The notes under the pieces: model-generated
Seen by the model: the letters and a program-made list of their open reading frames with translations, nothing else
Database searches by the model: none
Told to the model about the DNA's origin: nothing
Shown: piece by piece, positions 3,700-21,886 of the stretch
Numbering within the stretch: position 1 is the stretch's first letter
Layout: each line of letters starts with the position of its first letter
Source of the DNA: a virus
Lineage: Duplodnaviria; Heunggongvirae; Uroviricota; Caudoviricetes
Direction: 5' to 3' (one strand)
DNA length: 21,886 bases
IMG/VR virus record: IMGVR_UViG_2909739949_000002
Coordinates: 146,529-168,414 of that record
Translations under genes and position numbers: made by a program

Positions 3700-4052
3700 T
3701 GGCTAAACCTTGGGATCATGCAATAGAATCCTCTCGCAAATTTGGAGGCAAACCAGAGGATTATTTTGAGATTCATCAAATGATAGATAGCTCTAAATCA
3801 GCTCATGCAACTATGAAACATAGATGTGTATTTCATAATTCATTTGGCATATATCTTATTGAAAGAATATTTGGGATTAACATAACTAATAGCAATGGAA
3901 AGTTAGTTTCTGTAAGAGAAATAGCAGAGCTTCACGTTTTAAGTGACTTAGGAAAAATTCCTTCTCTAGATGATTGGATGAAAGAAATGGAACTTAAGCC
4001 TTGGATGGGTCAACCTACTAAAGTTGTTTACGAATATAAGTTGGGAGAGTAA
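3699..4052 (+). CDS. DUF6915-like His-rich protein
   Basis: Pattern P..HA.SS.RKFGG..EDY..IH...D.SK....HR...H...GI...E.IFG..ITNS.GK.V.VR.IAE.HV..DLG.IPS matches my recollection of DUF6915; AAGGAG RBS. Confidence 0.75.
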   Translation: MAKPWDHAIESSRKFGGKPEDYFEIHQMIDSSKSAHATMKHRCVFHNSFGIYLIERIFGINITNSNGKLVSVREIAELHVLSDLGKIPSLDDWMKEMELKPWMGQPTKVVYEYKLGE

Positions 4053-4166: not shown

Positions 4167-4724
4167 ATGCAAAGAGTATTGAGACATGAGTTAGACAACA
4201 CAATAGACAAGTCTTTAAATGAAATTAAGTTAGCTCAAGAAGCAATAGGTAAATCAGTTCTTGAGTTAGTAGTAAAACAAGTTAGAGATGTAATAGAGTA
4301 TTTGCCTGACTCAATAGTAGGTATTACATGGACACAATATACCCCATTCTTTAATGATGGAGATCCATGCACTTTTAGAGTTAATGATCCTCAATGGATT
4401 ACTAAAGCTGAAGAGAATATAAATAATATCTTCAATGAATGGGTACTAGAAACTATAGATAAATATGGAGAAGATGTTATCCAAGTAGAAGGAATAGTAG
4501 AGCAATATATACTTCTTGATACCTGGAGCTGTTTCTATCAATACTTAAATAACGAAAGGATGTTCTTCTCTCCAGATAAAGAACAGTTATTTAATATTCT
4601 CCAAGATATAGAAGCTGCTTTATCTAGAATAGAAAGCTATCTAGAAGATGAGATGGGCGGGCATTCGGAAATTTACATATTCAAAGACAAGATAGTAGTA
4701 GAGGAATATCTTAATCATGATTGA
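4167..4724 (+). CDS. Hypothetical protein, WTQYTP(F/Y)FNDG family, paralog 1
   Basis: GITWTQYTPFFNDGDPCTF motif; C-terminal GGHSEIYI...EEYLNHD. Confidence 0.8.
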   Translation: MQRVLRHELDNTIDKSLNEIKLAQEAIGKSVLELVVKQVRDVIEYLPDSIVGITWTQYTPFFNDGDPCTFRVNDPQWITKAEENINNIFNEWVLETIDKYGEDVIQVEGIVEQYILLDTWSCFYQYLNNERMFFSPDKEQLFNILQDIEAALSRIESYLEDEMGGHSEIYIFKDKIVVEEYLNHD

Positions 4725-5190
4725 AGGATTTAATTCAATTGAAGAGTACCATGAAGAACTCTGTGGAGTTATAGATAAGAATTGGAGTGAGCTTTTAGCA
4801 AAAGTTAGGACAGAAGTAGCTAATTTACTAAAGCTTTATTTCCTCGAAGTTAATGATGAAACAAGTATAGAAGGTATCACTTGGACTCAATATACTCCTT
4901 ACTTTAACGACGGAGAAGAATGTGTATTCTCAATAGGAGATGTTTATTATCTATTGAGAAATGAATATGGTGGCTATGAGAATATAGGAATAGATGATTT
5001 TAATCCTAGGTTTAATCCTAATCCTATTACTGATGATGAACATAAGGATGCTGAATTAGAGAGCCGCCTTAAGTTATTACAAGAACTTCTCCATAAGAAT
5101 GAAAGTTATTTCCAGATAGTATTTGGAGATCATGCAAGAGTATCAATAACAGCAGATAACTTGAGAGTAGAGAGATACGACCATGAGTAA
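4717..5190 (+). CDS. Hypothetical protein, WTQYTP(F/Y)FNDG family, paralog 2
   Basis: GITWTQYTPYFNDGEECVF motif; C-terminal FGDHARVSI...ERYDHE; overlaps both neighbours. Confidence 0.8.
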   Translation: MIEGFNSIEEYHEELCGVIDKNWSELLAKVRTEVANLLKLYFLEVNDETSIEGITWTQYTPYFNDGEECVFSIGDVYYLLRNEYGGYENIGIDDFNPRFNPNPITDDEHKDAELESRLKLLQELLHKNESYFQIVFGDHARVSITADNLRVERYDHE

Positions 5191-6265
5191 ATTTCTAGTA
5201 GAGATAGTAGAGATAGATCAAGTAGTTAAACATCCTGATGCTGATTCATTAGAGATTATCTCTATAAAGAATATGGGATATCAAGTAATCAGTAAGATGG
5301 GTAATTACAAAAGTGGCGACTTAGCTATTTACTTTCCTATTGATTCAGTAATACCTGACGACTTAGTTGAAGTCTTTGGTATTAGAGCCTACTATAATGG
5401 GAAAATTAGGGCGGCTAAGTTAAGAGGTATATTCTCAGAAGGATTACTAATTCCTATTGATATAATCAAAGCTATATTATCTAGCAAAGGAAGATTAGTA
5501 TCTACTCCTGATGAAAAAGAGTATTACTTAAATAGCGATAATACTGCTTATGAACTTAGCATAGGAACAGATCTATCTCATTCTTTAGGAATTACTAAGT
5601 ATGAATATCCCTTACCAACTCAAATGGGTGGGATAGCAGAGATGCCTGTAGGTCAATATAAATTCCCTAGTCCTGAGAACTATAAGAGATATAGTCATCT
5701 ATTAGAGAAAGGTGAGTATATATTCCTAACCGAAAAAGTTCATGGTAGCCACCTTCTTTATGTACTAGACGAAGAAGGAATACCACATATAGGCAGTCAC
5801 AATTACTTCTGGAAGATAGATGCAGAAGAGAATACTAACAATATATATGTGAGAGCTTATAAGGAGAATCCTAATCTAGCTAAAGTACCTAAAGGATACT
5901 GTCTCTATGGAGAGGTATATGGTAGTGGGGTACAAGATTTAAAGTACGGACTAAAGAATGGACAGATTAGGATTGCTGTCTTTGCGATCGCATATAAAAG
6001 AAAGATACTAAATATGAATGAGGTATCTGATTTATGTAGACAATGGGAACTACCAATGGTACCAGTTCTATATGAGGGGCCTTATTCAGATGAGATAGTT
6101 CAGTCTTTTAATAATGCTGATAGTTATCTATGTCCAGGGCAGATACAGGAAGGAGTAGTAATAGTTCCTAAGGAAGAGAGAAGTAGTTTAGAGATAGGTA
6201 GAGTGTGTCTGAAGTCTATCTCTGATAGATATTCTCTAAGAAAAGAAGGCACTGAACTACATTAA
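5183..6265 (+). CDS. ATP-dependent RNA ligase, DRB0094/Rnl5 family
   Basis: N-terminal OB-like domain (HPDADSLE, YFPIDS, KLRGIFSEGL); nucleotidyltransferase motifs TEKVHGS (I), LYGEVYG (III), QEGVVI (IV), LKSIS (V). Confidence 0.9.
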   Translation: MSKFLVEIVEIDQVVKHPDADSLEIISIKNMGYQVISKMGNYKSGDLAIYFPIDSVIPDDLVEVFGIRAYYNGKIRAAKLRGIFSEGLLIPIDIIKAILSSKGRLVSTPDEKEYYLNSDNTAYELSIGTDLSHSLGITKYEYPLPTQMGGIAEMPVGQYKFPSPENYKRYSHLLEKGEYIFLTEKVHGSHLLYVLDEEGIPHIGSHNYFWKIDAEENTNNIYVRAYKENPNLAKVPKGYCLYGEVYGSGVQDLKYGLKNGQIRIAVFAIAYKRKILNMNEVSDLCRQWELPMVPVLYEGPYSDEIVQSFNNADSYLCPGQIQEGVVIVPKEERSSLEIGRVCLKSISDRYSLRKEGTELH

Positions 6266-9011: not shown

Positions 9012-10012
9012 GATATGTGAATTGTTTCTTCTGTACTACTTGTTGAAGTATTAATAGTATATGTTTGTACTCCTCTATATCCTATTAGAGTTATAGAAGG
9101 ATCTAATAATTTAGCATAGGGAATTAACTGCTGAATTAACGACAGTCCATATTCATGAGGCTTTATAGGAGATAGAAAAGCAGTACCATTACTTCTCTCA
9201 TACATATAAAAAGTAAGATATGGAAAGTAATTATTATTAGTCTTATATCCAGTAAAGGTTCCTATCTGATGGAGATATCCACTAGCAGGATAATAACCTA
9301 TAGAATCTAATATACATTCTTCTATCTCTATTTCCCCTTCTAAAGGAAATCCCAAAGGGAAATCTAATTGCATAGGAGGCAAAGGAGATGTATAGAGCTT
9401 AGTATAGGGCCCATATAATCCTAATAAGTCCTGGTACTCATATAAAATTAGTTCCTTGCGAGTGACTAATCTACCAGTAAAATAAAAACCCGGTAGAAAA
9501 TTATGAGTATATCTATCAGATATCACTACTAAATTAGTATTCCATTCTTCTATTCGACTGTTATATATATAAAACTTATCTGGATAATTAATATTAATAG
9601 AATTAGTATTAACATCCCAGGAATATACTTTAGGTAATTTAGAACTTAGTTTAGTAGTAGTTCCTATATTAACTGGCACATATAGAAATTTACTATCTGT
9701 AATAGTATTCTTACCAGTAATAGATTTATAGAACTCATAGTTTAATTGGCCCTCTAAAGGAACGATACCTACATATCTATAATCCTCATTCAATATTATT
9801 TCAATAGCTTTCTCCCCAAGAAATAACTTAACAGGCTCTACAAAAGTAAATCTATCCCTTTTAGGATACTCTAAATATTTAAGATTCTGTTTTCTTACTA
9901 TTCTTAGATAAGGAGTCAGATTATCTAACTCAATAGGAATAAAGTTATTTATCCCCCTACTAGCTAAGTCATCTATATTAAGTTGTAACTCAGTAGCTAT
10001 ATCATATGTCAT
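9008..10012 (-). CDS. Hypothetical protein, probable virion component
   Basis: 334-aa Tyr/Pro-rich ORF with ATGA overlaps to both neighbours in the operon. Confidence 0.65.
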   Translation of the reverse strand: MTYDIATELQLNIDDLASRGINNFIPIELDNLTPYLRIVRKQNLKYLEYPKRDRFTFVEPVKLFLGEKAIEIILNEDYRYVGIVPLEGQLNYEFYKSITGKNTITDSKFLYVPVNIGTTTKLSSKLPKVYSWDVNTNSININYPDKFYIYNSRIEEWNTNLVVISDRYTHNFLPGFYFTGRLVTRKELILYEYQDLLGLYGPYTKLYTSPLPPMQLDFPLGFPLEGEIEIEECILDSIGYYPASGYLHQIGTFTGYKTNNNYFPYLTFYMYERSNGTAFLSPIKPHEYGLSLIQQLIPYAKLLDPSITLIGYRGVQTYTINTSTSSTEETIHIS

Positions 10013-13000
10013 TTAGGTTTTCTCCAGAATTTACCATTAGGTAATCTAATCTCTTCTATAGAATCTAAAGGTATTTCTCTATCATCTAATCTATCATCAA
10101 AAGGTCTAAAAGTAAGAGTAGGATCATGGATATTAACGTTAATAGCCTTAGCAATAATAGTTTCAGTATTAGTAGTTATATTAAATTGACCTCTAGGTAT
10201 GAAAATACCAGCGTAACCAGATTCTAATATAAAGTTAGTTACCGGATGAAGATTATTTATACTATTAATAGTTTGGTTAGTTTGTGCTTGTCCAGTAAAA
10301 GAACTATTATTAAAAGCTGCTCTACCTTCAGAGGGAAAAGGAATTCCACTGAACCCAGCAAATCTAGCATGAACTTCTGCTATTCTTCTTTTGTTCTCTA
10401 TTAACTGCAATTCTAATTTAACTGTTTTACTAAACTCTTCTGCAAATCCAGTTCTTATTACTACTTGATCTACAGTATTAGGTTTAGAAACTCTAATAGC
10501 AGATATAGCTTTTTGTAATGGAGTAGGCCCAGGAGAACTCTTAGGAGATGGAGGTATATATGTTGTATTAGGATTCTTTTTCTTTTCTTCTTCCTCTTTC
10601 TTATCATAAAGGATAACTGATCTAACATATTGAAAAGATCCATATCCTACACCTAATGAAAGAGAAGCTGCTCCTGCTAATTGAAGTAAAGGATTACTTA
10701 ATAACCTAATTGGATTTAATTGAACCCTATTAGAAACTAATCCTCCTACTACTTTTTCACTAGTACTATTAACTGAGTTAGTTAAATCATAAGTTTTATT
10801 AGGAACTACTATAGAAGGAGGTGGAGCTGGAGGTGGAATAGGAGGTGGGAGAGGTGGCTCAACTTTGTTAACTGTAGTATTAGTAGTCTCTATGGGAGTG
10901 GGGTCAGGATTAACATCAGGAGCAGCTTCTTCAATAGGAGAGTTCCATATATCTAATTCTGCTGGCTGATCAATAGCAGGTGTAGGTTTAATACCATTTG
11001 CCTCCTTAGCCGCCTCATAGATATTATCTAAGTCATCAGAAATATTTCCTAACTCTACTAGTTCTGGATCTTGAGCAACTACTGGCTGCTGTATAACAAT
11101 AGGTTCCTCTATTACAGGTGTAACTTCAGGTGGAGTAAAATCCTCAAATGTTGTAGTAGTAGGTGTTTCTTGAACTGCTACTGAAGCTTCCGTCTCATTA
11201 ATTACTGGAGTAGTCTCCTGTATAGCATCTGATTCTTGTTTATACTCAGCTAATACTTCTTCTGAATTAACTTTAGGTGGTTCATCGATTACTTTAGGTA
11301 CTGCATCTTCATTTACTACAGGGATAGGAGGTTCTTCTACAGGAACAGAAGTATCAATTGGATTAGGATTAGGCGCTTCGGGATTTATTTCCCAGGGTGG
11401 TTTAGGAGCAGGAGGCAATAACTCAGAAGGTTTAGGTACTTCTTCTGGTTGAATTATAAATTCATCTATAGCTTTCTGGAACTCATCTGTCTGTATAACA
11501 GGATCTATATCTAATGAAGAGTTAGTAGGAGTAAGAGTATATAGACCATCGCCATCAATCTGTCCAGTCTCTAATAATAATCTTCTTTCTGCAAGAACAT
11601 TATCTAATCCATCTGCTACTTGTTTACTAACTATCTTCTCAACTACGTCTCCTTTATTATTTGTATAAGTTACTCTATATTTACCTGTTGCTTCATATTT
11701 TATAGGACTCCCTATAGCATTTCTCGCTATAACCTTTCTGTCTGGAACTATCTTTGTTGGATTAATGGCATCATTTATTATAGATATATCTTCATTAATT
11801 GCTAGTATTTCTTCTTTAACTTTATTATTAATAGGAACATACTCTTTAACTTCTTTACCCTTTTTCTTAACTACCCTAACTTCTCTAAAGTTAGCTTCAG
11901 ATGGTTGATAAGGTGTACCAGCTTTTTCTTGTATAGTCTTTCTATAATTAAGATCTTGTAATTTAAACTGCTCTAATCTTTCTTCCCTGGCTTGTTTCTT
12001 AGCTAATGCTTCATCTAAAGATTGTTCTAGATCAGAAGTTCTAGAATCTACTTCATTCTCTATAGTTCTTCTAGAAGCATATCTAGTAGTAGTTCCTTGT
12101 TCTACTATTTCCTGAAATTCCGCATTAGTAATAGACTGCTTAAATTCTTTACCAGCAGAGTTTTTATATGTAATTAGTACATTATCATCAGAACTAGTAG
12201 AAAAGCCTACTATATCTGAGTCAGATGGAATGAAATCTAACTCTCCTGATTGAAGTACTTTATTTATCCTTACAGACTCTTCTGCACTTAGATCTACTGC
12301 TTTTAAATTACCAGAGGTATCTTTATAAGAATATCTATAAGTAGGTGTAGTTGATGCTGTTGATGGTACAACAGCAACATCGGGTACTACATCTGGAGGA
12401 ATAGTGGCTACAATTTCCTTTACTGGATCTGGCGGAGGTGTAGATGGAGGTTTAGGAGCACTTGAACTCGAAGTTGTATTCTTAGCTACAAAACTATCTA
12501 TAAAATCTACTTCTGCTTTATTAGAAGTAGATCCTCCAGTTTTATAATTAGGATAGCTAGTATTAGTATTAGTTCTTTTATTAAATACATTTATACCATT
12601 AACACTATCTTCATATTGAATCTGAACTATATCTCCTTTCTTACCGGATATAACACCAGTTGAATCTTTCTGTAATTCAAACTCATAAGTTCTAGCAGGA
12701 GTTCCTGAAGCTTTTCCTACTCCTTCTGGAATATCTGATTTAAGAGTTGCACTAGGAGGTGTAGGGTTAGTTGGTTTAGCTGTACCTGGTTTATATGGAG
12801 CAGGAGGACTCTGTGAATAAAGACTATTCTTAAAACTACCAACAACATCTGTAGATTCACTATTCTGATAGAAGAAGTTATCAAGAAAGTCTTTCTCTTG
12901 TGAATCAGGTTTTATAGTATTGATAGAACCAGTTTTATTATCAGGGGTTTGGTAAGTAATCTTTCTCTTAACAGAACTTCCTGAAATAGAACCACCTGAA

Positions 13001-15741
13001 TTATTACCAGATACCTCATATGTGAATTTAGTACCAGCAGGAAACTTATCTATCCTTCCAACTGAGGAAGCCATATCTTCTTGTAGAGTACCCTCGAAAG
13101 TATATTTGAAATTACCACCAGTATCAACTTCAGTAATAGCCCTACTACTAGTTCCTTTAGGAATAGTACTTGTACTACTACTAGTAGAACTAGTGGTAGA
13201 TGTTTTAGGAGGAGATGAAGGTGTAGAAGTAGAGGGAGATTTAACTTCTGGGTCTGGAGTAGTAGTTCTTTCTACTGGAGTTGGAGGGGGTGGTGTTCTA
13301 ATAGCTACTACCTTTTCTATAATCTCTTTAATAGATTCATCATCAGGAGGTAGAACTATTTCTACTGATTCAGGAGTAGCAGGTGCATAATCTTCAAATT
13401 TAATGACAGCTTTACCTTCACTGTTTCTAGAAACCTTAATGTTATTATTAGCTGGAATAGTATACTCAACTCCATCTACTCCTTTAATACTTATATCTTT
13501 ATCAAAACTAACATCAGTAGATACATCTGCTTCTATATCTGCAAACTTAGCTGCCTGACTAACTCCTGATCCAGATACTTTAACAGAAGTATATTTACTA
13601 AGAGCTTGTCCAAAAGTTATAGGAGCTGGTCTATTTTTATATAATCTTCCTAAAGTAACTTTATTAACTATACCTGTAGTAAGGGGACTAAAGAAAGATT
13701 CATCAAAAGCTTTAACAGCTCCACCTAAAGCATTTAATTCGGCTCCTGGAGCTTTACCTACAGTACCAACAGCTTTTAATACTCCTGATATAGGGTCTGC
13801 TACAAAGCCCCCAACTTTTAACACACCACTAGCTAACTTAGCAGAAGCACCAGTCCCTTGAGCAGCAGTCGTTAGAGCTTTACTTATACCTAAAGCTCTA
13901 GCAGGATACTTAGCTAAACTAGCAGCAGGAAGAACAGTTAATAGTAACTCTAGGTCGCTAGCATTATTACCTAGATCATTTCCTTGACCTTGATCTATAA
14001 GGCGTTTAATTCTAGTCCCAGTGTCAAAACAAATAAGAGCAGCTAAACCAGCAGTTAAACCTAAAGTGGCTCCACTAGCTCCTATTGTAGTAGCGCAACC
14101 TATTGCTGATCCAACAAGTACTACATGATTTTTAATAGCAGTGGCCGCATCACCATACTTTCTTCCAGATAGATTCTTAAATTCCTTTTCACTAATCCTA
14201 TCTATATAAGTAGAACCATCAGAAGTACCCCTAACAAAATACTCTGTTATAGTTTGTCCAGTATTAGGATCTACATAAGTAATTTTATTAACTAATACTT
14301 CTCTACCATTAGCATCAACAGCAGCAAACTCTTCTACCTTACCTAAAGCTTTACCGTTACCATCTTTTCCTTCAGCTAAAGCTATAATCTCACCTAATCT
14401 TTTCATTAAAGCTACATCAGCTTTAATCCTATTCTTTTTATCTAATGCCGCATTCTCTTCTTTCTGTAACTGAATAGCAGCAGTTAGATCATTATTTAGA
14501 TTAATAGGAATCTTACTAACTAATCCCATATCAGATACTTCTAATTGAAGTGTATACCAAGTTCTATCAGAACGTTGTTGATATACTTCCATAGATTTGA
14601 CTATGGCTTTGAATTTAGGATTACCATTAGCAGCTCTTATTACTGAATCTTCTTTACTAGGACTAGTTAATGTTCTATATTTACTTGAGTTGATTTCTAC
14701 TTCCATTTCTACACCTTGTAGAATTGCAAAGTTATAAAACTCTTGTAAATCTCTATAAGAATCTACTAAAGTAGCTAGACTATTTAATTCAGCTAAAGAA
14801 GATGCAGTATTATCAAATATACTTCTATTACCAACCTGTTCCCAAGGAGCTTTATCTGGATCTGCATATGGTTTAGCTCCATCTCCACCAGCAAAAGCGC
14901 CGACCATAGTAACTAATAAAGTATCCATACCTAGATTCTGAAATACAGGTTGGAAGCCTACAGTTTTAAACTTAGCTAGATTAGGAATTATTTTAAAAGA
15001 TAATCCAGGCATTACATTAGGAACATCTCTACTACCTTGCATAGGTAAGGTAGAGTTAATAGCTGGTAGTAAAGTTAAGTAAAACTCTTTATCAGTTATT
15101 TGAGTATTATTAACTGGGCCCGCACTTGGGTTATTAAAATTAGGATCATCAGCTTTCTTTAGAGTTCTAAATCTAACACCCCAAGTATCTCTAGGTTTTT
15201 CTGGTGTATCTTTTACTTCTTTAGGAAGTTCAGATTTATCTGGTTTATTAGGATTGCCGCTCTGACCTAAATCAATAGAAGGAGTTCTCTTAGTATCTAC
15301 ATTAAGTAAAGGTTTAGTTGAAGCCTTATTTAACTTTAACCATCTACTAGTAATAGACTGCAACTCTGATATAGCTTTAGGTAATACAGCTATATCTTTC
15401 TGAAATAGTGAAGAATTAAAATCCTGATTACCTTTAACTCTTGCATATACTAAGTTGAAATTATTATAGGTATTTAGAATATTATTTATATCAAATAAAT
15501 TATCTGATACCTCGCTTTCTCCTAGAGTATTAGCTAAAGGGAAGTATGATAGGCTATTTAACAAAGCTGAGTAAACAGAGTCTAAAGCTGTAGGAAGATT
15601 CCCATATCTTTGATAATCTAAAGAAGTGTTATCTATTGAACCTTCATATAGTTTTCTTATTCTTCCTATTATTCCTTCTTTATTAGTGTAAGCATCCCAT
15701 TTCTTAGCTTCATTAATTAGTGATTCTCTAGTATCAGTCAT
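10009..15741 (-). CDS. Giant (1910 aa) modular protein, probable virion tail-associated/ejected protein
   Basis: N-terminal region with PVFQNLGMDTLLVTMVGAF (reminiscent of GpU/tail-tube-initiator folds); Gly/Ala hydrophobic helices (~14030-14130); Pro/Ser/Thr linkers separating repeated small domains; acidic Pro-rich stalk; hydrophobic segment near the C-terminus (~10630-10700). Confidence 0.6.
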   Translation of the reverse strand: MTDTRESLINEAKKWDAYTNKEGIIGRIRKLYEGSIDNTSLDYQRYGNLPTALDSVYSALLNSLSYFPLANTLGESEVSDNLFDINNILNTYNNFNLVYARVKGNQDFNSSLFQKDIAVLPKAISELQSITSRWLKLNKASTKPLLNVDTKRTPSIDLGQSGNPNKPDKSELPKEVKDTPEKPRDTWGVRFRTLKKADDPNFNNPSAGPVNNTQITDKEFYLTLLPAINSTLPMQGSRDVPNVMPGLSFKIIPNLAKFKTVGFQPVFQNLGMDTLLVTMVGAFAGGDGAKPYADPDKAPWEQVGNRSIFDNTASSLAELNSLATLVDSYRDLQEFYNFAILQGVEMEVEINSSKYRTLTSPSKEDSVIRAANGNPKFKAIVKSMEVYQQRSDRTWYTLQLEVSDMGLVSKIPINLNNDLTAAIQLQKEENAALDKKNRIKADVALMKRLGEIIALAEGKDGNGKALGKVEEFAAVDANGREVLVNKITYVDPNTGQTITEYFVRGTSDGSTYIDRISEKEFKNLSGRKYGDAATAIKNHVVLVGSAIGCATTIGASGATLGLTAGLAALICFDTGTRIKRLIDQGQGNDLGNNASDLELLLTVLPAASLAKYPARALGISKALTTAAQGTGASAKLASGVLKVGGFVADPISGVLKAVGTVGKAPGAELNALGGAVKAFDESFFSPLTTGIVNKVTLGRLYKNRPAPITFGQALSKYTSVKVSGSGVSQAAKFADIEADVSTDVSFDKDISIKGVDGVEYTIPANNNIKVSRNSEGKAVIKFEDYAPATPESVEIVLPPDDESIKEIIEKVVAIRTPPPPTPVERTTTPDPEVKSPSTSTPSSPPKTSTTSSTSSSTSTIPKGTSSRAITEVDTGGNFKYTFEGTLQEDMASSVGRIDKFPAGTKFTYEVSGNNSGGSISGSSVKRKITYQTPDNKTGSINTIKPDSQEKDFLDNFFYQNSESTDVVGSFKNSLYSQSPPAPYKPGTAKPTNPTPPSATLKSDIPEGVGKASGTPARTYEFELQKDSTGVISGKKGDIVQIQYEDSVNGINVFNKRTNTNTSYPNYKTGGSTSNKAEVDFIDSFVAKNTTSSSSAPKPPSTPPPDPVKEIVATIPPDVVPDVAVVPSTASTTPTYRYSYKDTSGNLKAVDLSAEESVRINKVLQSGELDFIPSDSDIVGFSTSSDDNVLITYKNSAGKEFKQSITNAEFQEIVEQGTTTRYASRRTIENEVDSRTSDLEQSLDEALAKKQAREERLEQFKLQDLNYRKTIQEKAGTPYQPSEANFREVRVVKKKGKEVKEYVPINNKVKEEILAINEDISIINDAINPTKIVPDRKVIARNAIGSPIKYEATGKYRVTYTNNKGDVVEKIVSKQVADGLDNVLAERRLLLETGQIDGDGLYTLTPTNSSLDIDPVIQTDEFQKAIDEFIIQPEEVPKPSELLPPAPKPPWEINPEAPNPNPIDTSVPVEEPPIPVVNEDAVPKVIDEPPKVNSEEVLAEYKQESDAIQETTPVINETEASVAVQETPTTTTFEDFTPPEVTPVIEEPIVIQQPVVAQDPELVELGNISDDLDNIYEAAKEANGIKPTPAIDQPAELDIWNSPIEEAAPDVNPDPTPIETTNTTVNKVEPPLPPPIPPPAPPPSIVVPNKTYDLTNSVNSTSEKVVGGLVSNRVQLNPIRLLSNPLLQLAGAASLSLGVGYGSFQYVRSVILYDKKEEEEKKKNPNTTYIPPSPKSSPGPTPLQKAISAIRVSKPNTVDQVVIRTGFAEEFSKTVKLELQLIENKRRIAEVHARFAGFSGIPFPSEGRAAFNNSSFTGQAQTNQTINSINNLHPVTNFILESGYAGIFIPRGQFNITTNTETIIAKAINVNIHDPTLTFRPFDDRLDDREIPLDSIEEIRLPNGKFWRKPK

Positions 15742-16186: not shown

Positions 16187-16257
16187 AAGAGATGAGGCAA
16201 TTTATTAATTAATTAATTTAAAGAGATATCTAATGCAGATATGTAGGAGAAATATAA

Positions 16258-17346
16258 ATGGAATTAGAAGTTCAGAAATATTTAAGAGATAAAGGTTCTT
16301 TAGAATCTTTAGAGAAAGAGTTAGCTATTAGTTCTAAGAGACATAAATTATTTCCTAATCTAGTCCTATTGAAATATTCTCAAATTGATTCTCCAAGAAC
16401 TCATGAAGTAGTAAAACAATGTAGAGGTATTATTTTAGATGAAGAAGATAATTGGAAAGTAATTAGCTATCCTTATAAACGCTTTTATAATGCAGAAGAA
16501 TATGGAGCTGATGAAATAGATTGGAGTAATGCTACTTGCTATGAGAAACTAGACGGCTCTCTTTGTACAATTGCTAAATATAAGAATAGATGGTTTGTTT
16601 CTACTAGTGGATCTCCAGATGCTAGTGGTTCAGTAGGAGATTTTAACTTTACCTTTGAGGATTTATTCTGGAAGACTTTTGATGAACTATACGACATATC
16701 TTGTTTATTAAATTTAAATGAGCAGGTATGTTTTATGTTTGAGTTATTAACTCCATATAATCAAGTCATAGTTAGACATGATACTAGTAGATTAATTTTA
16801 CATGGAGCGCGTAGATTAGATACTCTGGAAGAATTAGATCCCTTAAAGATAGCTAAAGAAATAGGCTGGGAACCTATAAAGACATATCCATTTACTACAT
16901 GGGCGGATATTCAAGCCGCCATAGTAGATATAGATGGTAGTAAATCAGAAGGATATGTAGTAGTAGATAAAGAATTCAGAAGAGTAAAAGTAAAGAGTCC
17001 TCAATATGTAGCCCTCTCTCATCTTAAAGAGGGTATTACTTCTAGAAGAATATTAGAGATAGTTAGAACTAATGAGGGGTCTGAGTTTCTAGCTTATTTC
17101 CCCGCCTTCAAAGATATCTATATAGATTATCTAGATAAATACAAACAGCTAGTAGAAGATATAGATATCGTCTATCAGAAAGTTAAAGATATAAAGGGCA
17201 GAAAGGAATTAGCTATGGAGATAAAACATTTACCTTATAGTGGAATAATATTTGCTCTAGTAGATGGACATACATCTTCTATTAGAGAAGGCTTAAGAAC
17301 CACTCATATAGATAAATTAGCCTCTTGGTTAGGAGTTAAAGAATGA
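16258..17346 (+). CDS. T4 Rnl1-like ATP-dependent RNA ligase
   Basis: QCRGIILD, PYKRFYN, motif I EKLDGS, motif III FMFEL, motif IV EGYVV, motif V RVKVKS; AGGAGA RBS. Confidence 0.9.
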   Translation: MELEVQKYLRDKGSLESLEKELAISSKRHKLFPNLVLLKYSQIDSPRTHEVVKQCRGIILDEEDNWKVISYPYKRFYNAEEYGADEIDWSNATCYEKLDGSLCTIAKYKNRWFVSTSGSPDASGSVGDFNFTFEDLFWKTFDELYDISCLLNLNEQVCFMFELLTPYNQVIVRHDTSRLILHGARRLDTLEELDPLKIAKEIGWEPIKTYPFTTWADIQAAIVDIDGSKSEGYVVVDKEFRRVKVKSPQYVALSHLKEGITSRRILEIVRTNEGSEFLAYFPAFKDIYIDYLDKYKQLVEDIDIVYQKVKDIKGRKELAMEIKHLPYSGIIFALVDGHTSSIREGLRTTHIDKLASWLGVKE

Positions 17347-17774
17347 GTAGAGAAAGTAAGAGAATTATCCAAGAGAGAGAAGAATTAACTAGAACACAGA
17401 ATAGAAGAATGTTCTTGAATAGCTTACCTAGAAAGCTACTAGAGTTAATGTTGGAAGTGGAAAGTATAGGAGGCTCTTATAAAGTTACTTCTATAGATTT
17501 CCATGAGCTAACTAAATCAAGTGAGATAGAAATTGAGTTTAAGTGGTATGACTTATCTAATACTACTCAGAAGTACTACTTAAATACTGCTAGTGAGGAA
17601 TGGGAGTTACAAAATGTAGTAGATAAGGTTCAGTCCTACAAGAGAGAGTTGGAAAGGGATAATTATCTAAAAGAGATATCTAAAGAAGCTAGACAGAAAG
17701 CAAAGGAGGCGCTAACTGAAGATCAATTAGAAGCCTTAGTTAGATATGTAAAAGAAACAGGAGTAATTAATTAG
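17343..17774 (+). CDS. Hypothetical protein, small paralog family member 1
   Basis: KLLELMLEVESIG helix, IEIEFKW strand, LNTASEE, then coiled coil ending ALTEDQLEAL. Confidence 0.75.
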   Translation: MSRESKRIIQEREELTRTQNRRMFLNSLPRKLLELMLEVESIGGSYKVTSIDFHELTKSSEIEIEFKWYDLSNTTQKYYLNTASEEWELQNVVDKVQSYKRELERDNYLKEISKEARQKAKEALTEDQLEALVRYVKETGVIN

Positions 17775-17775
17775 T

Positions 17776-18195
17776 ATGGCATTAGAAAGATATCAAGACT
17801 TAGATCTAAGATTGGCGGCGATGTTAGATCTAATAGCTATGGCTCAGAAAGAAGATGTAAAAGCTATTGTTATGAATAGCAAAGAAGAGAATCCATATAA
17901 GAAAGAAGATAAAGACATTATATGTGTGAGATTTGAACATGAAGGAAAGAATTTAGGTATAATTAGTAGCCATACTACACTAGCTTATCCAGTAGATATT
18001 AAGAGGCAATTAGAAAGGATAAGAGATGAAAGGATAGAGAAGGAATTAAAATATGAACAATTACTTAGCGCCTTAGGAACTATTAGAGATAATCTTTCTC
18101 CTGAAGAGTTAAAGGCTCTGAATGAAATTATTCCAATACAACAAACAATCTATAACTATTTAAGAAAGGAGTCTAAAGATGAAGGAGAATATTAG
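17776..18195 (+). CDS. Hypothetical protein, small paralog family member 2
   Basis: AMLDLIAMAQKEDV, CVRFEH, IISS, coiled coil, LSPEELKAL. Confidence 0.75.
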   Translation: MALERYQDLDLRLAAMLDLIAMAQKEDVKAIVMNSKEENPYKKEDKDIICVRFEHEGKNLGIISSHTTLAYPVDIKRQLERIRDERIEKELKYEQLLSALGTIRDNLSPEELKALNEIIPIQQTIYNYLRKESKDEGEY

Positions 18196-18547
18196 TTTAT
18201 TAAGTAAGAGTGATTATGAATCTAATAGAGCAACTGCTTTATTAGACTTATTATCTATGGCTCAGAGTAACGGAGTCTTTAATTGTGTTAGTAAGACAAT
18301 AGATGGAGAACATCATATAGCCTTCTGCTTAATGACAATAAAGCCAGCAGTAGATTGTATTATCAGTTCTAGCGACACTTACGAGAAATATGTAGAAGTA
18401 TACAATTCTCTAATGATACCTTTTATTAAGAGAAAGCTAGAAGTGATTAAGAAGATTACTGATATTGCTACTCAAGAGGAATTAGAACTAGTGGGTATCG
18501 ATACTAATAAATGGGAACTTAGTTTAAAGGAGTATGTAGTTGAGTAG
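18179..18547 (+). CDS. Hypothetical protein, small paralog family member 3
   Basis: ALLDLLSMAQSNGV, HIAFCL, IISSSDTYEKY, ATQEELELVGI. Confidence 0.75.
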   Translation: MKENISLLSKSDYESNRATALLDLLSMAQSNGVFNCVSKTIDGEHHIAFCLMTIKPAVDCIISSSDTYEKYVEVYNSLMIPFIKRKLEVIKKITDIATQEELELVGIDTNKWELSLKEYVVE

Positions 18548-19751
18548 ACTGATTATTATTCAAGGTCTACCTGCTAGTGGTAAGAGTACAAAGGCGGCGG
18601 AGTTAGCCGCCTCTCTTATTAATAGTGTGGTAGTAGAGATGGATGAAATTAGAAAAGAGATGGGAATTCTTAATCTCCCTTTTAATAAAGAGAAAGAGAC
18701 CCAGGTTAAACAGATAAGAGATTCTAGAATTAGAAAGTATCTAAAAGATGGAAAGATAGTTATATCAAGTGACACTAATCTGAAACAAGATACTACTAAG
18801 AGACTAGAAGAGATAGCCGCCCAAAGTAGATCAACTGTTGAATATATATCTCTAACTGATGTTTCTTTAGAAGAATGTATTAGAAGAGATAGTGCTAGGG
18901 ATAGATCAGTAGGTGAAGCAGTTATTAGAAGATTCTATAACCAATACCTAAGACCAGATGATCCTATCTATAAATTCGGGAAGTATGGAAACCATCCTAG
19001 TGGATTAGATAATGTAATAGTTATAGGCGATATTCATGGTCAACATGAAAAGTTAACTAATCTATTACTTAGAGTAGGTATCTACATAGACTCTTTTGAG
19101 TGGGTTAATAGTAATAATTATTACTGTGTATTTCTAGGAGATTTAAATGATCCTAGATTAAGTGATCCTAAACTTAATCTGCCACCTTACTCTTCTTCTC
19201 TTAGATGTATCTATATAGTTAAGAAGCTAGTAGATTTAGGATGGGCTACTCTAATACAGAGTAATCACCAGAAGAACCTAATACAAGCTATTAGAGGAGA
19301 GAGGACTAGATATTCCTATGGATTGGAATATACTATGGAAGAGATGAGGGAAGAAGATCTGGTAGATTATGTTCCTTATAGAGGAATAGCAGATTGGTTA
19401 TCTAATCAACCTTACTTCTATAAATTCTATTGTGGTAGAAAGTTATTTATCTGTACTCATGCAAAGTATACAGTGGGAATGAAGCAATATATTCCTACAG
19501 GTAATGAGATACAGAATGCTTTATATGGGCCTGTAGATAAGAACATCAAATATGTTCCAGGGGGTAAAGATCCTAGAATACATTGGTGGTTAGATGAGAC
19601 TAATAGAATTGAGGGAGCCGTCCAGATATCAGGTCATTATCATACTTACTATTCTACTGATTGGGTGAAGATTATAGATAGTGAATGCGGTAATGACGGC
19701 GGCTTATTAACTGGTTATTTACCAGTAACTAATCAGACTATTCAGGTATAA
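18540..19751 (+). CDS. Polynucleotide kinase fused to calcineurin-like metallophosphoesterase (Pnkp-like RNA end-healing enzyme)
   Basis: P-loop GLPASGKST, DEIR, DTNL and CIRRDSAR of the T4-PNK/AAA_33 type; phosphoesterase motifs GDIHG, GDLND, SNHQ, THA, GHYH; TTG start with AAGGAG RBS. Confidence 0.88.
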   Translation: MSRLIIIQGLPASGKSTKAAELAASLINSVVVEMDEIRKEMGILNLPFNKEKETQVKQIRDSRIRKYLKDGKIVISSDTNLKQDTTKRLEEIAAQSRSTVEYISLTDVSLEECIRRDSARDRSVGEAVIRRFYNQYLRPDDPIYKFGKYGNHPSGLDNVIVIGDIHGQHEKLTNLLLRVGIYIDSFEWVNSNNYYCVFLGDLNDPRLSDPKLNLPPYSSSLRCIYIVKKLVDLGWATLIQSNHQKNLIQAIRGERTRYSYGLEYTMEEMREEDLVDYVPYRGIADWLSNQPYFYKFYCGRKLFICTHAKYTVGMKQYIPTGNEIQNALYGPVDKNIKYVPGGKDPRIHWWLDETNRIEGAVQISGHYHTYYSTDWVKIIDSECGNDGGLLTGYLPVTNQTIQV

Positions 19752-19755
19752 ATAC

Positions 19756-20013
19756 ATGAATAACATCTATTACGAATTACTGTTTCTAATAGCAATTGCA
19801 CAAGAAGCAGGCGTAAGAACATCTGTTACTACTAGAGGTATAGATATCTCAATAGATTTTCTATTTACTGAAGTAGATATAAGATTGTCATCTATGCATT
19901 TAGATATAGATAGCAGTCCTGAAGATATAAAAGAAGTAAGTTTTGCTCTAAAAGAGATTATCTCAAAAGAGAAACTAAAAGCTGAAATGGTGCTAAAGAA
20001 ATTCAATAGGTGA
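19756..20013 (+). CDS. Hypothetical protein, small paralog family member 4
   Basis: ELLFLIAIAQEAGVRTSVTTRG, IDFLF, LDIDSSPEDI. Confidence 0.75.
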   Translation: MNNIYYELLFLIAIAQEAGVRTSVTTRGIDISIDFLFTEVDIRLSSMHLDIDSSPEDIKEVSFALKEIISKEKLKAEMVLKKFNR

Positions 20014-20020
20014 ATAGAGT

Positions 20021-20407
20021 ATGACTAATGCTGAAAGATTACTATTCCTTTTAGCTCTAGCAGAAGAAGCTACTGTAACAACTAGAGTTATTACTACTGG
20101 GAGTAATATTAAAGTTAGATTTCTATTTAAGTATTACTCTACTGCTTTAGAAACTAGTGAATTACAACTAACATCTTCTGAGAAAGATTATGAAACAGTA
20201 GAGATTCTTCTAAGAAGAATAGCTACAAGAGAGAATAAAAGGAATGAGTTAGAGATGAATGCTCTAAATAAAATTAAATGCGTAGTTCCTCTAGAAGAAG
20301 CAATACATTTAGATATATTCTCTCAACATGATTTAGAAAGGATGTATGGAGAAGAAGAAGTGAATAAGGCATTAAACAATAGTTATAAAGAAGTATTAGA
20401 AAGATGA
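20021..20407 (+). CDS. Hypothetical protein, small paralog family member 5
   Basis: RLLFLLALAEEATVTTRVITTG, VRFLF, LQLTSSEKDY, coiled coil. Confidence 0.75.
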   Translation: MTNAERLLFLLALAEEATVTTRVITTGSNIKVRFLFKYYSTALETSELQLTSSEKDYETVEILLRRIATRENKRNELEMNALNKIKCVVPLEEAIHLDIFSQHDLERMYGEEEVNKALNNSYKEVLER

Positions 20408-20556
20408 CAGAGACCGCCGCACAAGTTTTATTAAGATGCGCCATAAGATGGAATAAGATTAAGCATCTTAATAAAGAAGATAGAAAAAGATTAATGAGAT
20501 TATCAGAAGATGAGTTTAGATTAGAGATAGATAAATTAACTAAACTAGTAGCTTAA
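20404..20556 (+). CDS. Small 50-aa helical protein (not in ORF track)
   Basis: MTETAAQVLLRCAIRWNKIKHLNKEDRKRLMRLSEDEFRLEIDKLTKLVA*; ATGA overlap with the upstream stop; fills the gap and overlaps the recombinase 3' end by 17 nt. Confidence 0.55.
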   Translation: MTETAAQVLLRCAIRWNKIKHLNKEDRKRLMRLSEDEFRLEIDKLTKLVA

Positions 20557-21886
20557 CTTCTAATACTTCACCATTAAGTACTCTAACTTCTCTAACAAGT
20601 TGTTTATAGATAACTACCTTATCTAACCAACTAATATCCTGGAAGAATTCTATATTACTATAAGAAGATTCCAGGATATTAAATAGTTCTTTATCTACTT
20701 GAGTTTCTTTAATAATAGAATGTTTTATTTGCTCAATACTTTCTAGAATTCCTTGGATAGCTTCATCTACAAAAGGATTTCCTTGAAGATTTCTAAGACC
20801 AGCTAGGGTAGCTTCATTTTTAATAATCTCTGGATGGCTTTGAATCTTAACTTCTATATTATCTAGAGTATATGCTATTAACTTTTCATATCTAGATACA
20901 AGTGCTTCGTCTACTTTCTGAATAACATAAGCTAATCTAGTACTTCTACCATTAGAACAATTTAACTCTCCTAGAGTATCTCTCTTAATACATCTAAGTC
21001 TATAGGTATTACCATGAGGAGTTTTAAATCTACAATGGAATCCACAATCTCCACACAATATTAATCCTGATAGTGGAAGCGGATCTTTATTAGATTTATT
21101 ATTTCCATACGCATACTTATGCTTATTATCTTTTAGTTTATCTAGTATGAGTTTGTAATTAGCTTCAGATATTAAAGGAGTATGTGTATTAGATATAACT
21201 TTCCAATCATCAGGATTATCAGATCGACTACGTCTGTAATATACCGTATGTCCTCTTAATACTGGATTAGTCATCCATTTTCTTAATCCAGTAGGAGTCC
21301 ACTTTTTATTATGTTTCTCTAAAGAGTATATTGCTGCCTTTCTAAGAGAAACATTTTCATATATAAAATAGTTAATTATATCTATTGCTATTTCCCAATT
21401 GTTCCTATCAGGTGAGTATTTCTCATCTACTCTCATATAACCAAAAGGGATTTGAGGACAAGCTTTATGTTGTTCTCTGAAGTAATCTAGTCCATGCTTT
21501 ATTCTATCGCTTAATAATCTAGATTCAAACTCAGCTAATCCTGCCATCTGATTAACCTGGAACCAACCAAAGGGAGAAGAAGGATCTACAGGTGCATCTA
21601 TTATAGTTAATTTAACTCCGTAAGTTTCAAATAAACTTATAACCTTATTAATACCAATAACACTTCTACCTAATCTATCTATTCTAGTTACTACTACTTC
21701 AGTTATCTTCCTTTTCTTAACTAAATTAATCATCCTATTAAAATTCTTTCTATCAGAAGATTTACCTGATTCTATATCAGAGAATATCTCTATTACTCCT
21801 TCTTTCTCCACTCTATTAGTTTGCTGATTAAGCGCATCAGTTAAAGCTTGCTCTCTATTAGAAACTCTTACATACCCTACCTTCAT
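20540..21886 (-). CDS. Large serine recombinase (integrase), XisF-like
   Basis: Catalytic GYVRVS; DIESG..SDR; TRIDRLGRS; AEFES..LS.R; PFGY; recombinase domain NPVLRG and H.PLIS; zinc ribbon LSGLILCGDCG...RC...C; C-terminal coiled coil. Confidence 0.93.
   Translation of the reverse strand: MKVGYVRVSNREQALTDALNQQTNRVEKEGVIEIFSDIESGKSSDRKNFNRMINLVKKRKITEVVVTRIDRLGRSVIGINKVISLFETYGVKLTIIDAPVDPSSPFGWFQVNQMAGLAEFESRLLSDRIKHGLDYFREQHKACPQIPFGYMRVDEKYSPDRNNWEIAIDIINYFIYENVSLRKAAIYSLEKHNKKWTPTGLRKWMTNPVLRGHTVYYRRSRSDNPDDWKVISNTHTPLISEANYKLILDKLKDNKHKYAYGNNKSNKDPLPLSGLILCGDCGFHCRFKTPHGNTYRLRCIKRDTLGELNCSNGRSTRLAYVIQKVDEALVSRYEKLIAYTLDNIEVKIQSHPEIIKNEATLAGLRNLQGNPFVDEAIQGILESIEQIKHSIIKETQVDKELFNILESSYSNIEFFQDISWLDKVVIYKQLVREVRVLNGEVLEVKLLV

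What the first reader, a model, noticed from the sequence alone, without database searches (positions are those of the whole stretch)
16258..20556. RNA-repair operon interleaved with five divergent paralogs of one uncharacterised small-protein family
ORFs at 17343, 17776, 18179, 19756 and 20021 share one layout: helix LL.L(I/L)A.AQ..GV, then a beta strand ending in (I/V).F, then (I/L)..(S)S.E, then a coiled coil ending L(T/S).EEL..L (truncated in 19756). They sit three between and two after Rnl1 and Pnkp in one tightly packed operon. Rnl1 plus end-healing enzymes are established counters to host anticodon nucleases (T4 versus PrrC). Inference: a diversified paralog array embedded in this operon could be inhibitors or adaptors against different host ribotoxins, i.e. 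a candidate undescribed anti-defence system.
Basis: partly seen in the sequence, partly recalled or inferred. Interest (0 to 1): 0.75.

Follow-up and report, generated by a model that had tools for sequence, protein, structure and literature searches.

The report
Paralog array inside phage RNA-repair operon
A large temperate phage has an RNA-repair gene cluster with five fast-evolving small sister genes of unknown function inserted into it; they look like small protein binders, but nothing yet ties them to RNA repair.

Summary
The coordinates and gene calls are correct. Window 16258-20556 is one tightly packed plus-strand operon at the integrase end of a 168-kb provirus. It encodes an Rnl1-family RNA ligase, three small ORFs, a kinase plus calcineurin-type phosphatase (Pnkp), two small ORFs and a 50-aa ORF.

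Four of the five small proteins are related by sequence:
- 19756/20021: BLASTP E 5e-8.
- 17776/18179: E 7.7e-4.
- Pair against pair: hhalign E 3e-4.

The fifth (17343) is supported only by fold-level hints. AlphaFold models of one member per pair give the same layout: an alpha-beta-beta-beta-alpha head, then a long helix and C-terminal helices. Both models share the same top neighbours, which are uncharacterised phage proteins.

No sequence homologue exists in about 15 billion proteins. The head weakly resembles dsRBD, HicA and the T7 Gp1.2 inhibitor, but the proteins are acidic and lack RNA-binding or catalytic motifs.

In 77 of 80 cyanobacterial loci ligase and Pnkp are adjacent. In phages, unrelated small ORFs often sit between them. 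This genome has 20 paralog groups, many of them tandem. The one probable structural relative I could place (phage ACP17) is not beside RNA-repair genes.

The paralog family is real. The anti-ribotoxin reading is untested and only weakly favoured.

The parts
16187..16257 (.). 71-nt intergenic region between the divergent minus-strand structural block and the operon. The operon's promoter should lie here.
   Evidence: ORF map. A GGAG Shine-Dalgarno site lies 8 nt before the rnl1 ATG. The sigma-70 consensus scan found no site here.
16258..17346 (+). Rnl1-family (T4 RnlA-like) ATP-dependent RNA ligase, 362 aa
   Evidence: PF09511 5.9e-17, 62.7 bits against a cut-off of 28.3. phrog_562 7.2e-43. T4 Rnl1 chains 2c5u, 5tt6 and 9do4, E 1.6e-5 to 5.5e-5. 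K97, D99, G100, E231, G232, K244 and K246 are invariant across 24 homologues. The nearest relatives are 44-50% identical and come from filamentous cyanobacteria and viral contigs.
17343..17774 (+). Small protein S1 (143 aa, pI 5.4). Probable but unproven family member.
   Evidence: ATGA start/stop overlap with rnl1 and a GGAG site. No significant sequence match to the other four. ESM Atlas model pLDDT 0.80. Its nearest neighbour is a viral 100-aa cluster with TM 0.50/0.67 over residues 22-115, and an RNase III dsRBD region scores 0.35.
17776..18195 (+). Small protein S2 (139 aa, pI 5.1). Family member.
   Evidence: BLASTP to S3 E 7.7e-4. AlphaFold model pLDDT 68.5: H2-25, E29-37, E46-55, E58-64, H72-105, H109-135. 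BFVD top hits are shared with S5.
18179..18547 (+). Small protein S3 (122 aa, pI 4.9). Family member. The long start at 18179 is preferred.
   Evidence: An AGGAG site precedes 18179 and none precedes the internal ATG at 18257. A public gene call uses the 96-aa form, which would remove the conserved N-terminal helix. In the leave-one-out HMM it is the top non-member hit, E 0.0026.
18540..19751 (+). Pnkp: polynucleotide 5'-kinase plus calcineurin-type 3'-phosphatase, 403 aa, TTG start
   Evidence: AAA_33 53 bits and Metallophos 21.9 against a cut-off of 21.5. phrog_505 'polynucleotide kinase' 3.8e-30. TIGR04075 bacter_Pnkp 9.8e-18. PDB 4j6o 'Metallophosphoesterase' E 1.4e-5 and T4 Pnk 1ly1/1ltq E 1e-3. 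An AGGAG site precedes the TTG.
19756..20013 (+). Small protein S4 (85 aa, pI 5.1). Family member lacking the C-terminal helices.
   Evidence: BLASTP to S5 E 5e-8. It aligns with S5 at 37% identity with a single one-residue gap over its length.
20021..20407 (+). Small protein S5 (128 aa, pI 5.2). The best-modelled family member.
   Evidence: AlphaFold model pLDDT 86.2, pTM 0.63: H3-16, E20-26, E29-35, E45-49, H54-88 and three further helices. Top BFVD hit A0A6J5M2C0, E 1.1e-4.
20404..20556 (+). 50-aa basic ORF (pI 9.7), last gene of the operon. Not a detectable family member.
   Evidence: ATGA overlap with S5. No family hits. No BLASTP match better than E 0.18 to the five.
20540..21886 (-). 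Large serine recombinase (integrase). It is convergent with the operon, overlaps it by 17 nt and marks the provirus end.
   Evidence: Resolvase 1.7e-28, Recombinase 1.3e-10, Zn_ribbon_recom 9e-8. phrog_95 'integrase' 1.2e-61. The window ends where the 168,414-bp provirus record ends.

Best explanation
Shown. A temperate 168-kb phage carries a heal-and-seal RNA-repair operon. Pnkp would convert 5'-OH and 3'-phosphate ends into ligatable ends, and the Rnl1-type ligase would seal them. This is the T4 pathway for repairing cleaved tRNA; that statement rests on established knowledge, not on a test here. A lineage-specific family of small acidic proteins has been inserted into this pair of genes, which is normally contiguous. 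The family has then been expanded by tandem duplication. Four members are secure and a fifth is probable. In the two members modelled, each has an alpha-beta-beta-beta-alpha head (the dsRBD / Gp1.2 / HicA-like arrangement) on a long helix.

Inferred. These proteins have no conserved polar, catalytic or basic RNA-binding residues. They evolve very fast. They have the shape of known small phage inhibitors. I therefore read them as stoichiometric protein binders that block or modulate host proteins, made at the same time as the repair enzymes. Their targets are unknown. A specific link to tRNA-cleaving host nucleases is possible but not supported beyond co-transcription.
For: - Operon and enzymes.
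- Paralogy; DNA remnants.
- Shared topology in two models. Both models also share four BFVD neighbours: A0A6J5M2C0, A0A8S5UIW9, A0A218M319 and A0A482MLH4.
- The independent ESM Atlas models of S2 and S1 also have viral proteins of about 100 aa and dsRBD domains as neighbours.
- All five are acidic, pI 4.9-5.4. The only invariant columns are M, L, L, V and E.
- Insertion into an ancestral pair: in 77 of 80 cyanobacterial loci a kinase-HAD Pnkp starts -4 to 389 nt after the ligase. Only 4 of those 77 have any ORF of 45 aa or more in the gap.
- No homologue in 5.8 billion clusters or 1.84 billion representatives. This fits fast evolution or a poorly sampled lineage.
Against: - There is no functional, expression or interaction evidence of any kind.
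- Both AlphaFold runs used the same five-sequence alignment, so the two models are not fully independent.
- S1 is not linked by sequence.
- The acidic pI is also the genome norm for small proteins: median 5.29 over 101 proteins.
- Small fast-evolving phage proteins have many roles other than inhibition.
Confidence: 0.45

Rival explanations
1. The small genes have no tie to RNA repair. They are ordinary early or 'moron' genes that landed in a permissive spot near the integrase and duplicated locally, as small genes do throughout this genome. Their targets, if any, are unrelated to RNA damage.
For: - 20 paralog groups among 260 called genes, many of them tandem.
- In 23 of the 50 viral loci with both genes, ORFs lie between rnl and pnk. 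One of these (L110) is the ligase's own second half. The rest are mutually unrelated and include a membrane protein and a Cys-rich protein.
- ACP17's Rnl1 - kinase - HD - metallophosphoesterase cluster is also interleaved with small hypothetical genes.
- The probable ACP17 structural relative lies about 30 kb from that phage's Rnl1 gene.
Against: - All five copies stayed inside one translationally coupled operon with the two repair enzymes.
- No copy lies elsewhere in the 168 kb.
- The genome invests heavily in RNA repair, so an RNA-conflict module is plausible.
Confidence: 0.3
2. The five are accessory subunits or adaptors of the repair enzymes. Their helical stalks would assemble ligase and Pnkp into one complex, or their heads would give substrate specificity.
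For: Start/stop overlaps couple rnl1 to S1 and S3 to pnkp. A long exposed helix in both models suggests oligomerisation, which is an inference.
Against: - Related ligase-Pnkp pairs work without such genes: 77 of 80 cellular loci are contiguous, and 27 of the 50 viral loci have no ORF between the two genes.
- Five divergent copies are not expected for a fixed structural partner.
Confidence: 0.12
3. They are RNA-binding proteins of dsRBD type that recognise broken tRNA or other structured RNA and hand it to the repair enzymes.
For: The alpha-beta-beta-beta-alpha topology. dsRBD-containing proteins appear among the weak structural neighbours.
Against: - No Pfam dsrm hit at E up to 0.1.
- Net negative charge, -3.4 to -6.3.
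- No conserved basic residues at the start of helix 2 in the alignment.
- TM-scores to dsRBD proteins are only 0.33-0.38.
Confidence: 0.08
4. The 'family' is partly an artefact. S1, and perhaps the link between the two pairs, reflects only a common small alpha/beta layout and coiled-coil composition, so the locus holds two unrelated paralog pairs plus a singleton.
For: S1 is not significant in any sequence test. The pair-to-pair hhalign probability is only 40%.
Against: The pair-to-pair alignment is colinear over 87 columns at E 3e-4. The models of S2 and S5 share the same top two BFVD neighbours.
Confidence: 0.15

Closest known systems
Phage T4 RnlA (Rnl1) plus PseT (Pnkp) tRNA repair, which counters the PrrC anticodon nuclease
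   Same: The same two activities: an Rnl1-family ligase and a 5'-kinase/3'-phosphatase, both phage-encoded. The role against anticodon nucleases is established knowledge and is reviewed in passages of PMC7824862.
   Different: - The ligase is a distant relative: TIGR02308 scores 44 bits against a cut-off of 242.
- The phosphatase is calcineurin-type, not the T4 HAD type.
- Here the genes sit in one operon with five small paralogs. No anticodon nuclease or host is known for this phage.
Bacterial Pnkp (kinase - metallophosphoesterase - ligase, Clostridium thermocellum type, partner of Hen1)
   Same: Kinase plus calcineurin-type phosphoesterase. The best NCBIfam hit is TIGR04075 bacter_Pnkp and the best PDB hit for the phosphatase part is 4j6o.
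   Different: There is no fused ligase domain (403 aa against a model of 851 positions), and the score is far below the equivalog cut-off (63.7 against 750). No Hen1 hit was seen in the Pfam scans of the window and genome proteins. That 4j6o is the C. thermocellum Pnkp phosphatase domain is recalled, not shown by the call.
Phage T7 Gp1.2, inhibitor of E. coli dGTPase
   Different: There is no sequence similarity. The present proteins carry an extra long helix and C-terminal helices. The match is within the range the tool calls a common arrangement. The target is unknown.
dsRBD / HicA / HPF-type alpha-beta-beta-beta-alpha domains
   Different: No Pfam hit, no conserved His and no basic RNA-binding motif; the proteins are acidic.
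RNA-repair repertoires of large and jumbo phages (Iyer et al. 2021, PMC7824862)
   Same: Several RNA ligases in one phage, Pnk with a calcineurin-type phosphatase in a minority, and TROVE/Ro proteins (passages read). This genome has Rnl1, a second ligase, Pnkp, a Thg1-like enzyme and a TROVE protein.
   Different: The passages read do not describe a small-protein paralog family within a ligase-Pnkp operon. I did not read the whole paper or its supplements.

Membership tests
T4 RnlA (Rnl1) family RNA ligase | RNA_lig_T4_1 domain (PF09511) above Pfam's gathering score | tested here: met
   62.7 bits against 28.3, covering profile positions 1-227 of 227.
T4 RnlA (Rnl1) family RNA ligase | Nucleotidyl-transferase motif I lysine (KxDG) and the later E-G and KxK motifs (motif names recalled) | tested here: met
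   K97, D99, G100, E231, G232, K244 and K246 are invariant in the alignment of 24 homologues.
T4 RnlA (Rnl1) family RNA ligase | NCBIfam equivalog TIGR02308 above its cut-off | tested here: not met
   44.4 bits against 242.25. It is a divergent member of the family, not an equivalog of T4 RnlA.
Polynucleotide kinase-phosphatase (Pnkp) | N-terminal P-loop polynucleotide kinase domain | tested here: met
   AAA_33 53 bits against 27. phrog_505 3.8e-30. T4 Pnk chains E 1e-3. A Walker A motif is visible in the translation.
Polynucleotide kinase-phosphatase (Pnkp) | T4-type HAD phosphatase domain (PF25109) | tested here: not met
   No HAD_PNKP hit, whereas the cyanobacterial and viral neighbours tested have one at 1.6e-26 to 3.6e-53. 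This protein has Metallophos instead, at 21.9 against 21.5 bits.
Bacterial Pnkp (TIGR04075) | Kinase - metallophosphoesterase - ligase in one chain, above the equivalog cut-off | tested here: not met
   63.7 bits against 750. It is 403 aa and has no ligase domain.
dsRBD (PF00035) | Sequence match to the dsrm profile | tested here: not met
   No hit at E up to 0.1 for any of the five.
dsRBD (PF00035) | alpha-beta-beta-beta-alpha topology | tested here: met
   Seen in the models of S5 and S2. Not modelled here for S1, S3 or S4.
dsRBD (PF00035) | Basic RNA-contacting residues at the start of helix 2 (feature recalled) | tested here: not met
   The aligned region is S/T/D/E-rich and the proteins have net charge -3.4 to -6.3.
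HicA toxin | Conserved catalytic histidine (feature recalled) | tested here: not met
   No invariant or nearly invariant His in alignment A1; the invariant columns are M, L, L, V and E.
HicA toxin | Structural match | tested here: inconclusive
T7 Gp1.2-like inhibitor | Structural match to Gp1.2 | tested here: inconclusive
T7 Gp1.2-like inhibitor | Binding and inhibition of a host enzyme | not testable with these tools
   Met for S2, S3, S4 and S5. Not met for S1.
   No sequence homologues exist to test. None was found in the 160 Rnl1-containing loci. The one probable structural relative that could be placed (ACP17) is not adjacent to RNA-repair genes.

The most novel reading that the evidence does not exclude
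The five paralogs are a diversified set of decoy inhibitors with a Gp1.2/dsRBD-like head. Each is tuned to a different host RNA- or tRNA-cleaving defence nuclease and is encoded in the same operon as the heal-and-seal enzymes. The phage would then both block ribotoxins and repair what gets through. That would be a two-layer counter-defence module not described before.
Probability: 0.15. Interest if true: 0.75.

Novelty: new variant of a known kind. Interest (0 to 1): 0.4.

Why it matters
Phage RNA-repair genes are an established answer to host nucleases that cut tRNA. Recent work shows that tRNA is a frequent target of bacterial immunity (abstracts listed).

If the inserted paralogs act on the same conflict, this would be the first example of repair enzymes and inhibitor proteins packaged together. 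The five divergent copies would then be ready-made probes for finding new host ribotoxins in a poorly studied host-phage system.

Even if they are unrelated to repair, the family defines a phage-specific small fold. It recurs in uncharacterised proteins of cultured phages (ACP17, BcepSauron) where it could be studied.

The genome itself carries an unusually rich RNA-repair toolkit for a temperate phage: two ligases, Pnkp, a Thg1-like enzyme and a Ro/TROVE protein.

Tried and rejected
**Homologue searches**
- S5 alone and the five-sequence profile, searched against 5.8 billion clusters, returned only the window's own proteins.
- The exhaustive profile search of 1.84 billion representatives added one 723-aa protein (E 1.8e-9, nine stretches). 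It is a 58-aa tandem-repeat protein whose weak matches add up, so I rejected it as spurious.
- HMMs A1, A5 and A6 and phmmer with each protein found no relative of the five small proteins in the 80 cyanobacterial or 80 viral Rnl1 loci.
- No other paralog exists in the 168-kb genome.
- blastn of the operon against the phage collection found no match.
- Pnkp as a single query found no viral locus.

**Family libraries**
- PADLOC gave only weak hits: AbiEi E 4.9e-4 over 44 residues of S3, OloA 0.0094, pVip 0.0064. I treated these as chance.
- Pfam, PHROGs and NCBIfam gave nothing for the five beyond weak sub-cut-off hits (best DUF6922, E 0.0018, 18.1 bits against 27).
- Rfam found no family in the window.

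**Structural neighbours in cultured phages**
- ACP17 has four CDS of 150 aa. Three are clearly something else: a P-loop kinase, a Gly/Ala-rich protein and a Thr/Ala-rich protein.
- The fourth, at 106896-107348, shares colinear motifs with S1, S2 and S3. It is not significant, though: hhalign P 0.03-0.07, and rank 42 of 615 ORFs with the A1 HMM.
- It has no tblastn relative in other phages.
- The BcepSauron neighbour could not be located by sequence.

**Other leads dropped**
- By eye, small ORFs flanking Pnkp in viral locus L095 looked similar to the family. hhalign rejected this (all P at or above 0.097).
- The repeat AGAGATATCT upstream of rnl1 and inside S1 is not above chance: 11 of 100 shuffles had 2 or more matches.

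**Expression and binding**
- No sequencing run was listed, so no RNA holder is listed.

**Host and literature**
- A RecA tblastn gave no useful host clue.
- The 2016 survey of RNA-repair systems (Burroughs and Aravind, recalled) is not held, so I could not check whether it describes such small proteins.


Full report
**Where the window lies.** The window is the last 21,886 bases (146529-168414) of a 168,414-bp record that IMG/VR classes as a provirus. G+C is about 30%. The record ends at the start codon of a large serine recombinase (20540-21886, minus strand).

**The operon.**
- On the plus strand, 16258-20556 holds eight ORFs with junctions from a 17-nt overlap to a 7-nt gap.
- GGAG-type ribosome-binding sites precede rnl1, 17343, 17776, 18179 and the TTG start of pnkp.
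- All eight ORFs show the same coding periodicity: GC1 > GC2, purine at codon position 1 in 64-71% of codons.
- For 18179 the long start has an AGGAG site and the internal ATG does not. A public gene call uses the short 96-aa form, which would delete the family's best-conserved helix.

**The two enzymes.**
- 16258-17346 is an Rnl1-family ligase: PF09511 62.7 bits, phrog_562 7.2e-43, T4 Rnl1 structures E about 1e-5. The KxDG lysine and later motif residues are invariant among 24 homologues.
- It is a distant member of the family: TIGR02308 scores 44 bits against a cut-off of 242.
- Of 2,308 hits at E up to 1e-5, the best are 44-52% identical. The named ones are mostly from filamentous cyanobacteria.
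- 18540-19751 has a P-loop polynucleotide-kinase domain followed by a calcineurin-type phosphoesterase.
- That is the bacterial-Pnkp arrangement without the ligase domain. The ligase-linked relatives tested here carry the T4 kinase-HAD arrangement instead.

**Are the five small proteins one family?**
- By BLASTP, 19756/20021 are clear paralogs (E 5e-8). 17776/18179 match at E 7.7e-4 over the N-terminal helix. Other pairs are not significant.
- Two colinear DNA remnants between 17776 and 18179 (84% and 75% identity, spacing 418 and 427 nt) fit a tandem duplication.
- A profile of 17776+18179 aligns with a profile of 20021+19756 over 87 colinear columns at E 3e-4, probability 40%.
- Leave-one-out HMMs searched against all 471 ORFs of the genome put the omitted member first for 19756, 20021, 18179 (E 0.0026) and 17776 (E 0.069). 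They do not recover 17343.
- hhalign of 17343 against either pair is not significant.
- No further copy exists in the genome.

**Fold.**
- The AlphaFold model of 20021 has pLDDT 86.2: helix 3-16, strands 20-26, 29-35 and 45-49, a 35-residue helix 54-88, then three short helices.
- The model of 17776 has pLDDT 68.5 and the same order: helix 2-25, three strands, helix 72-105, helix 109-135. Both runs used the same five-sequence alignment, so they are not fully independent.
- In BFVD the two models share their top two neighbours: A0A6J5M2C0 (122 aa; E 1.1e-4 and 6.0e-4) and A0A8S5UIW9 (153 aa). They also share A0A218M319 (phage ACP17) and A0A482MLH4 (phage BcepSauron). All are uncharacterised.
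- The ESM Atlas holds its own single-sequence models. For 17776 the nearest cluster is a viral 108-aa protein (TM 0.55/0.68), followed by dsRBD domains of RNase III at 0.33-0.38.
- For 17343 (pLDDT 0.80) the nearest cluster is a viral 100-aa protein (TM 0.50/0.67, residues 22-115), and an RNase III family scores 0.35. This is the only support for 17343 as a member.
- Foldseek finds nothing below E 0.2 against solved structures.

**What the sequences say about activity.**
- The only invariant columns are M1, two Leu, one Val and one Glu.
- There is no conserved His, so no HicA-type catalysis, and no basic patch at the start of helix 2, so no dsRBD-type RNA binding.
- All five are acidic, pI 4.9-5.4. 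That is also the genome median for small proteins, 5.29 over 101 proteins.
- Pfam, PHROGs and NCBIfam give nothing above weak sub-cut-off hits. PADLOC gives only weak hits that I treat as chance.

**Homologues elsewhere.**
- None was found by word-indexed search.
- The exhaustive profile search of 1.84 billion representatives added only one spurious tandem-repeat protein.
- The family is therefore either very fast-evolving or confined to a poorly sampled lineage. Of the 145 other proteins of this genome that were scanned, most have no Pfam hit either.

**Context in relatives.**
- In 77 of 80 cyanobacterial (and a few other) genome loci with an Rnl1 homologue, a kinase-HAD Pnkp starts -4 to 389 nt after the ligase. 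Only 4 of those 77 have any ORF of 45 aa or more in the gap. None has a relative of the small proteins.
- In 80 viral loci, 50 have a Pnkp-like gene within 6 kb. Of those, 27 have no ORF between ligase and Pnkp.
- The other 23 have one to several ORFs between them. One of these (L110) is the ligase's own second half.
- The interposed ORFs are diverse and include a membrane protein and a Cys-rich protein. They do not match the family HMMs.
- Locus L095 has the same layout as the window: ligase, several small ORFs, Pnkp, two small ORFs. Its small ORFs show no detectable similarity to the family.
- ACP17's Rnl1, stand-alone kinase, HD and metallophosphoesterase genes are likewise interleaved with small hypothetical genes.
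- A contiguous ligase-Pnkp pair therefore looks ancestral, and insertion of small genes into it is common in phages.

**A probable structural relative placed on a genome.**
- ACP17 has four CDS of 150 aa, the length of BFVD entry A0A218M319. Three are clearly other things.
- The fourth (106896-107348) aligns colinearly with the family. It has an N-terminal charged helix, an LxLxDLI...AAG helix, an EEWE motif shared with 17343, and an LSPEQ...AL motif shared with 17776 and 17343.
- The statistics are weak: hhalign P 0.03-0.07, and rank 42 of 615 ORFs with the A1 HMM. That this CDS is the BFVD entry is an inference by elimination.
- It lies after an RNase HI gene among small hypothetical genes, about 30 kb from Rnl1 and more than 100 kb from RnlB.

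**The genome's habits.**
- An all-against-all BLASTP of 260 called genes finds 20 paralog groups, many of them tandem.
- One is a triple directly after the TROVE/Ro gene. Another is a pair directly before the second RNA ligase (window 4167-5190).
- Local duplication of small genes is therefore routine in this phage. Twice more it occurs beside an RNA-related gene, which could be coincidence or a pattern.

**Interpretation.**
- Shown: a heal-and-seal operon, and a real paralog family of at least four members with a shared small fold, inserted into a normally contiguous enzyme pair.
- Inferred: the proteins bind proteins rather than RNA and act stoichiometrically. This rests on the absence of catalytic or basic motifs, rapid divergence, an exposed long helix, and the fold of a known phage inhibitor.
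- Whether their targets are ribotoxins, the repair enzymes or something unrelated cannot be decided. Co-transcription favours a link. The phage-wide pattern of unrelated interposed ORFs, the genome's duplication habit and the ACP17 placement argue against reading much into position.

**Confidence.**
- 0.45: small protein binders or inhibitors co-expressed with repair.
- 0.30: no functional tie to RNA repair at all.
- 0.12: adaptors of the repair enzymes.
- 0.08: RNA binders.
- 0.15 for the specific anti-ribotoxin array reading, which is a sub-case of the first.

**Not possible here.** No sequencing run was listed. The host contig is not held.

Noticed in passing
window 5183-6265 (+), with 4167-4724 and 4717-5190 upstream: A second RNA ligase of another type: PF09414 RNA_ligase plus the PHA02142 OB-fold domain, and phrog_968. 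Directly before it lie two overlapping paralogous ORFs (phrog_9564, unknown function). This is another small-paralog pair beside an RNA enzyme.
   Followed up: partly
genome G000:C1 54935-55714, 74960-76567 and 74426-74499 (outside the window): The phage also encodes a Thg1-like tRNA-His guanylyltransferase (PF04446, 1.9e-23) and a TROVE/Ro60-like protein (2.2e-11). A tRNA-Pro(TGG) gene (Rfam tRNA, 53 bits) lies about 460 nt upstream of the TROVE gene. Three tandem paralogs (76656-78350) follow it directly. Whether the tRNA-like gene acts as a Y-RNA-type partner was not tested.
   Followed up: partly
window 3-2711 (-), full gene at genome 146177-149239; also genome 108322-112010: The terminase large subunit carries an intein with a LAGLIDADG endonuclease. 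The family A DNA polymerase is split and carries an intein too. The two intein-bearing genes hit each other in BLASTP.
   Followed up: no
window 2780-3500 (+) and genome 62023-62716: A two-gene cassette (95 aa and 146 aa, no known family) is present twice in the genome, about 87 kb apart.
   Followed up: no
window 10009-15741 (-): A 1,910-aa protein with long Pro/Thr/Ser-rich stretches and no Pfam hit, in the minus-strand block next to the operon. It is probably a virion or tail protein.
   Followed up: no
genome G000:C1 191-14367 (outside the window): A run of about 22 plus-strand ORFs of 130-220 aa separated by gaps of about 70 nt. None has a Pfam hit, and several form tandem paralog pairs.
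   Followed up: no
genome G000:C1 62962-64209 (-): A TnpB/OrfB_IS605-type gene (Cas12f1-like TNB domain, 1.8e-24) inside the provirus.
   Followed up: no
loci L002-L081 (cyanobacterial genomes): A conserved chromosomal pair, an Rnl1-family ligase followed by a T4-type kinase-HAD Pnkp, is widespread in Microcoleus, Kamptonema, Tychonema and related cyanobacteria: 77 of 80 loci. I did not look at what flanks these pairs.
   Followed up: partly
window 3699-4052 (+): A DUF6915 protein (7.2e-41; phrog_8143) of unknown function lies between the duplicated cassette and the second ligase cluster.
   Followed up: no
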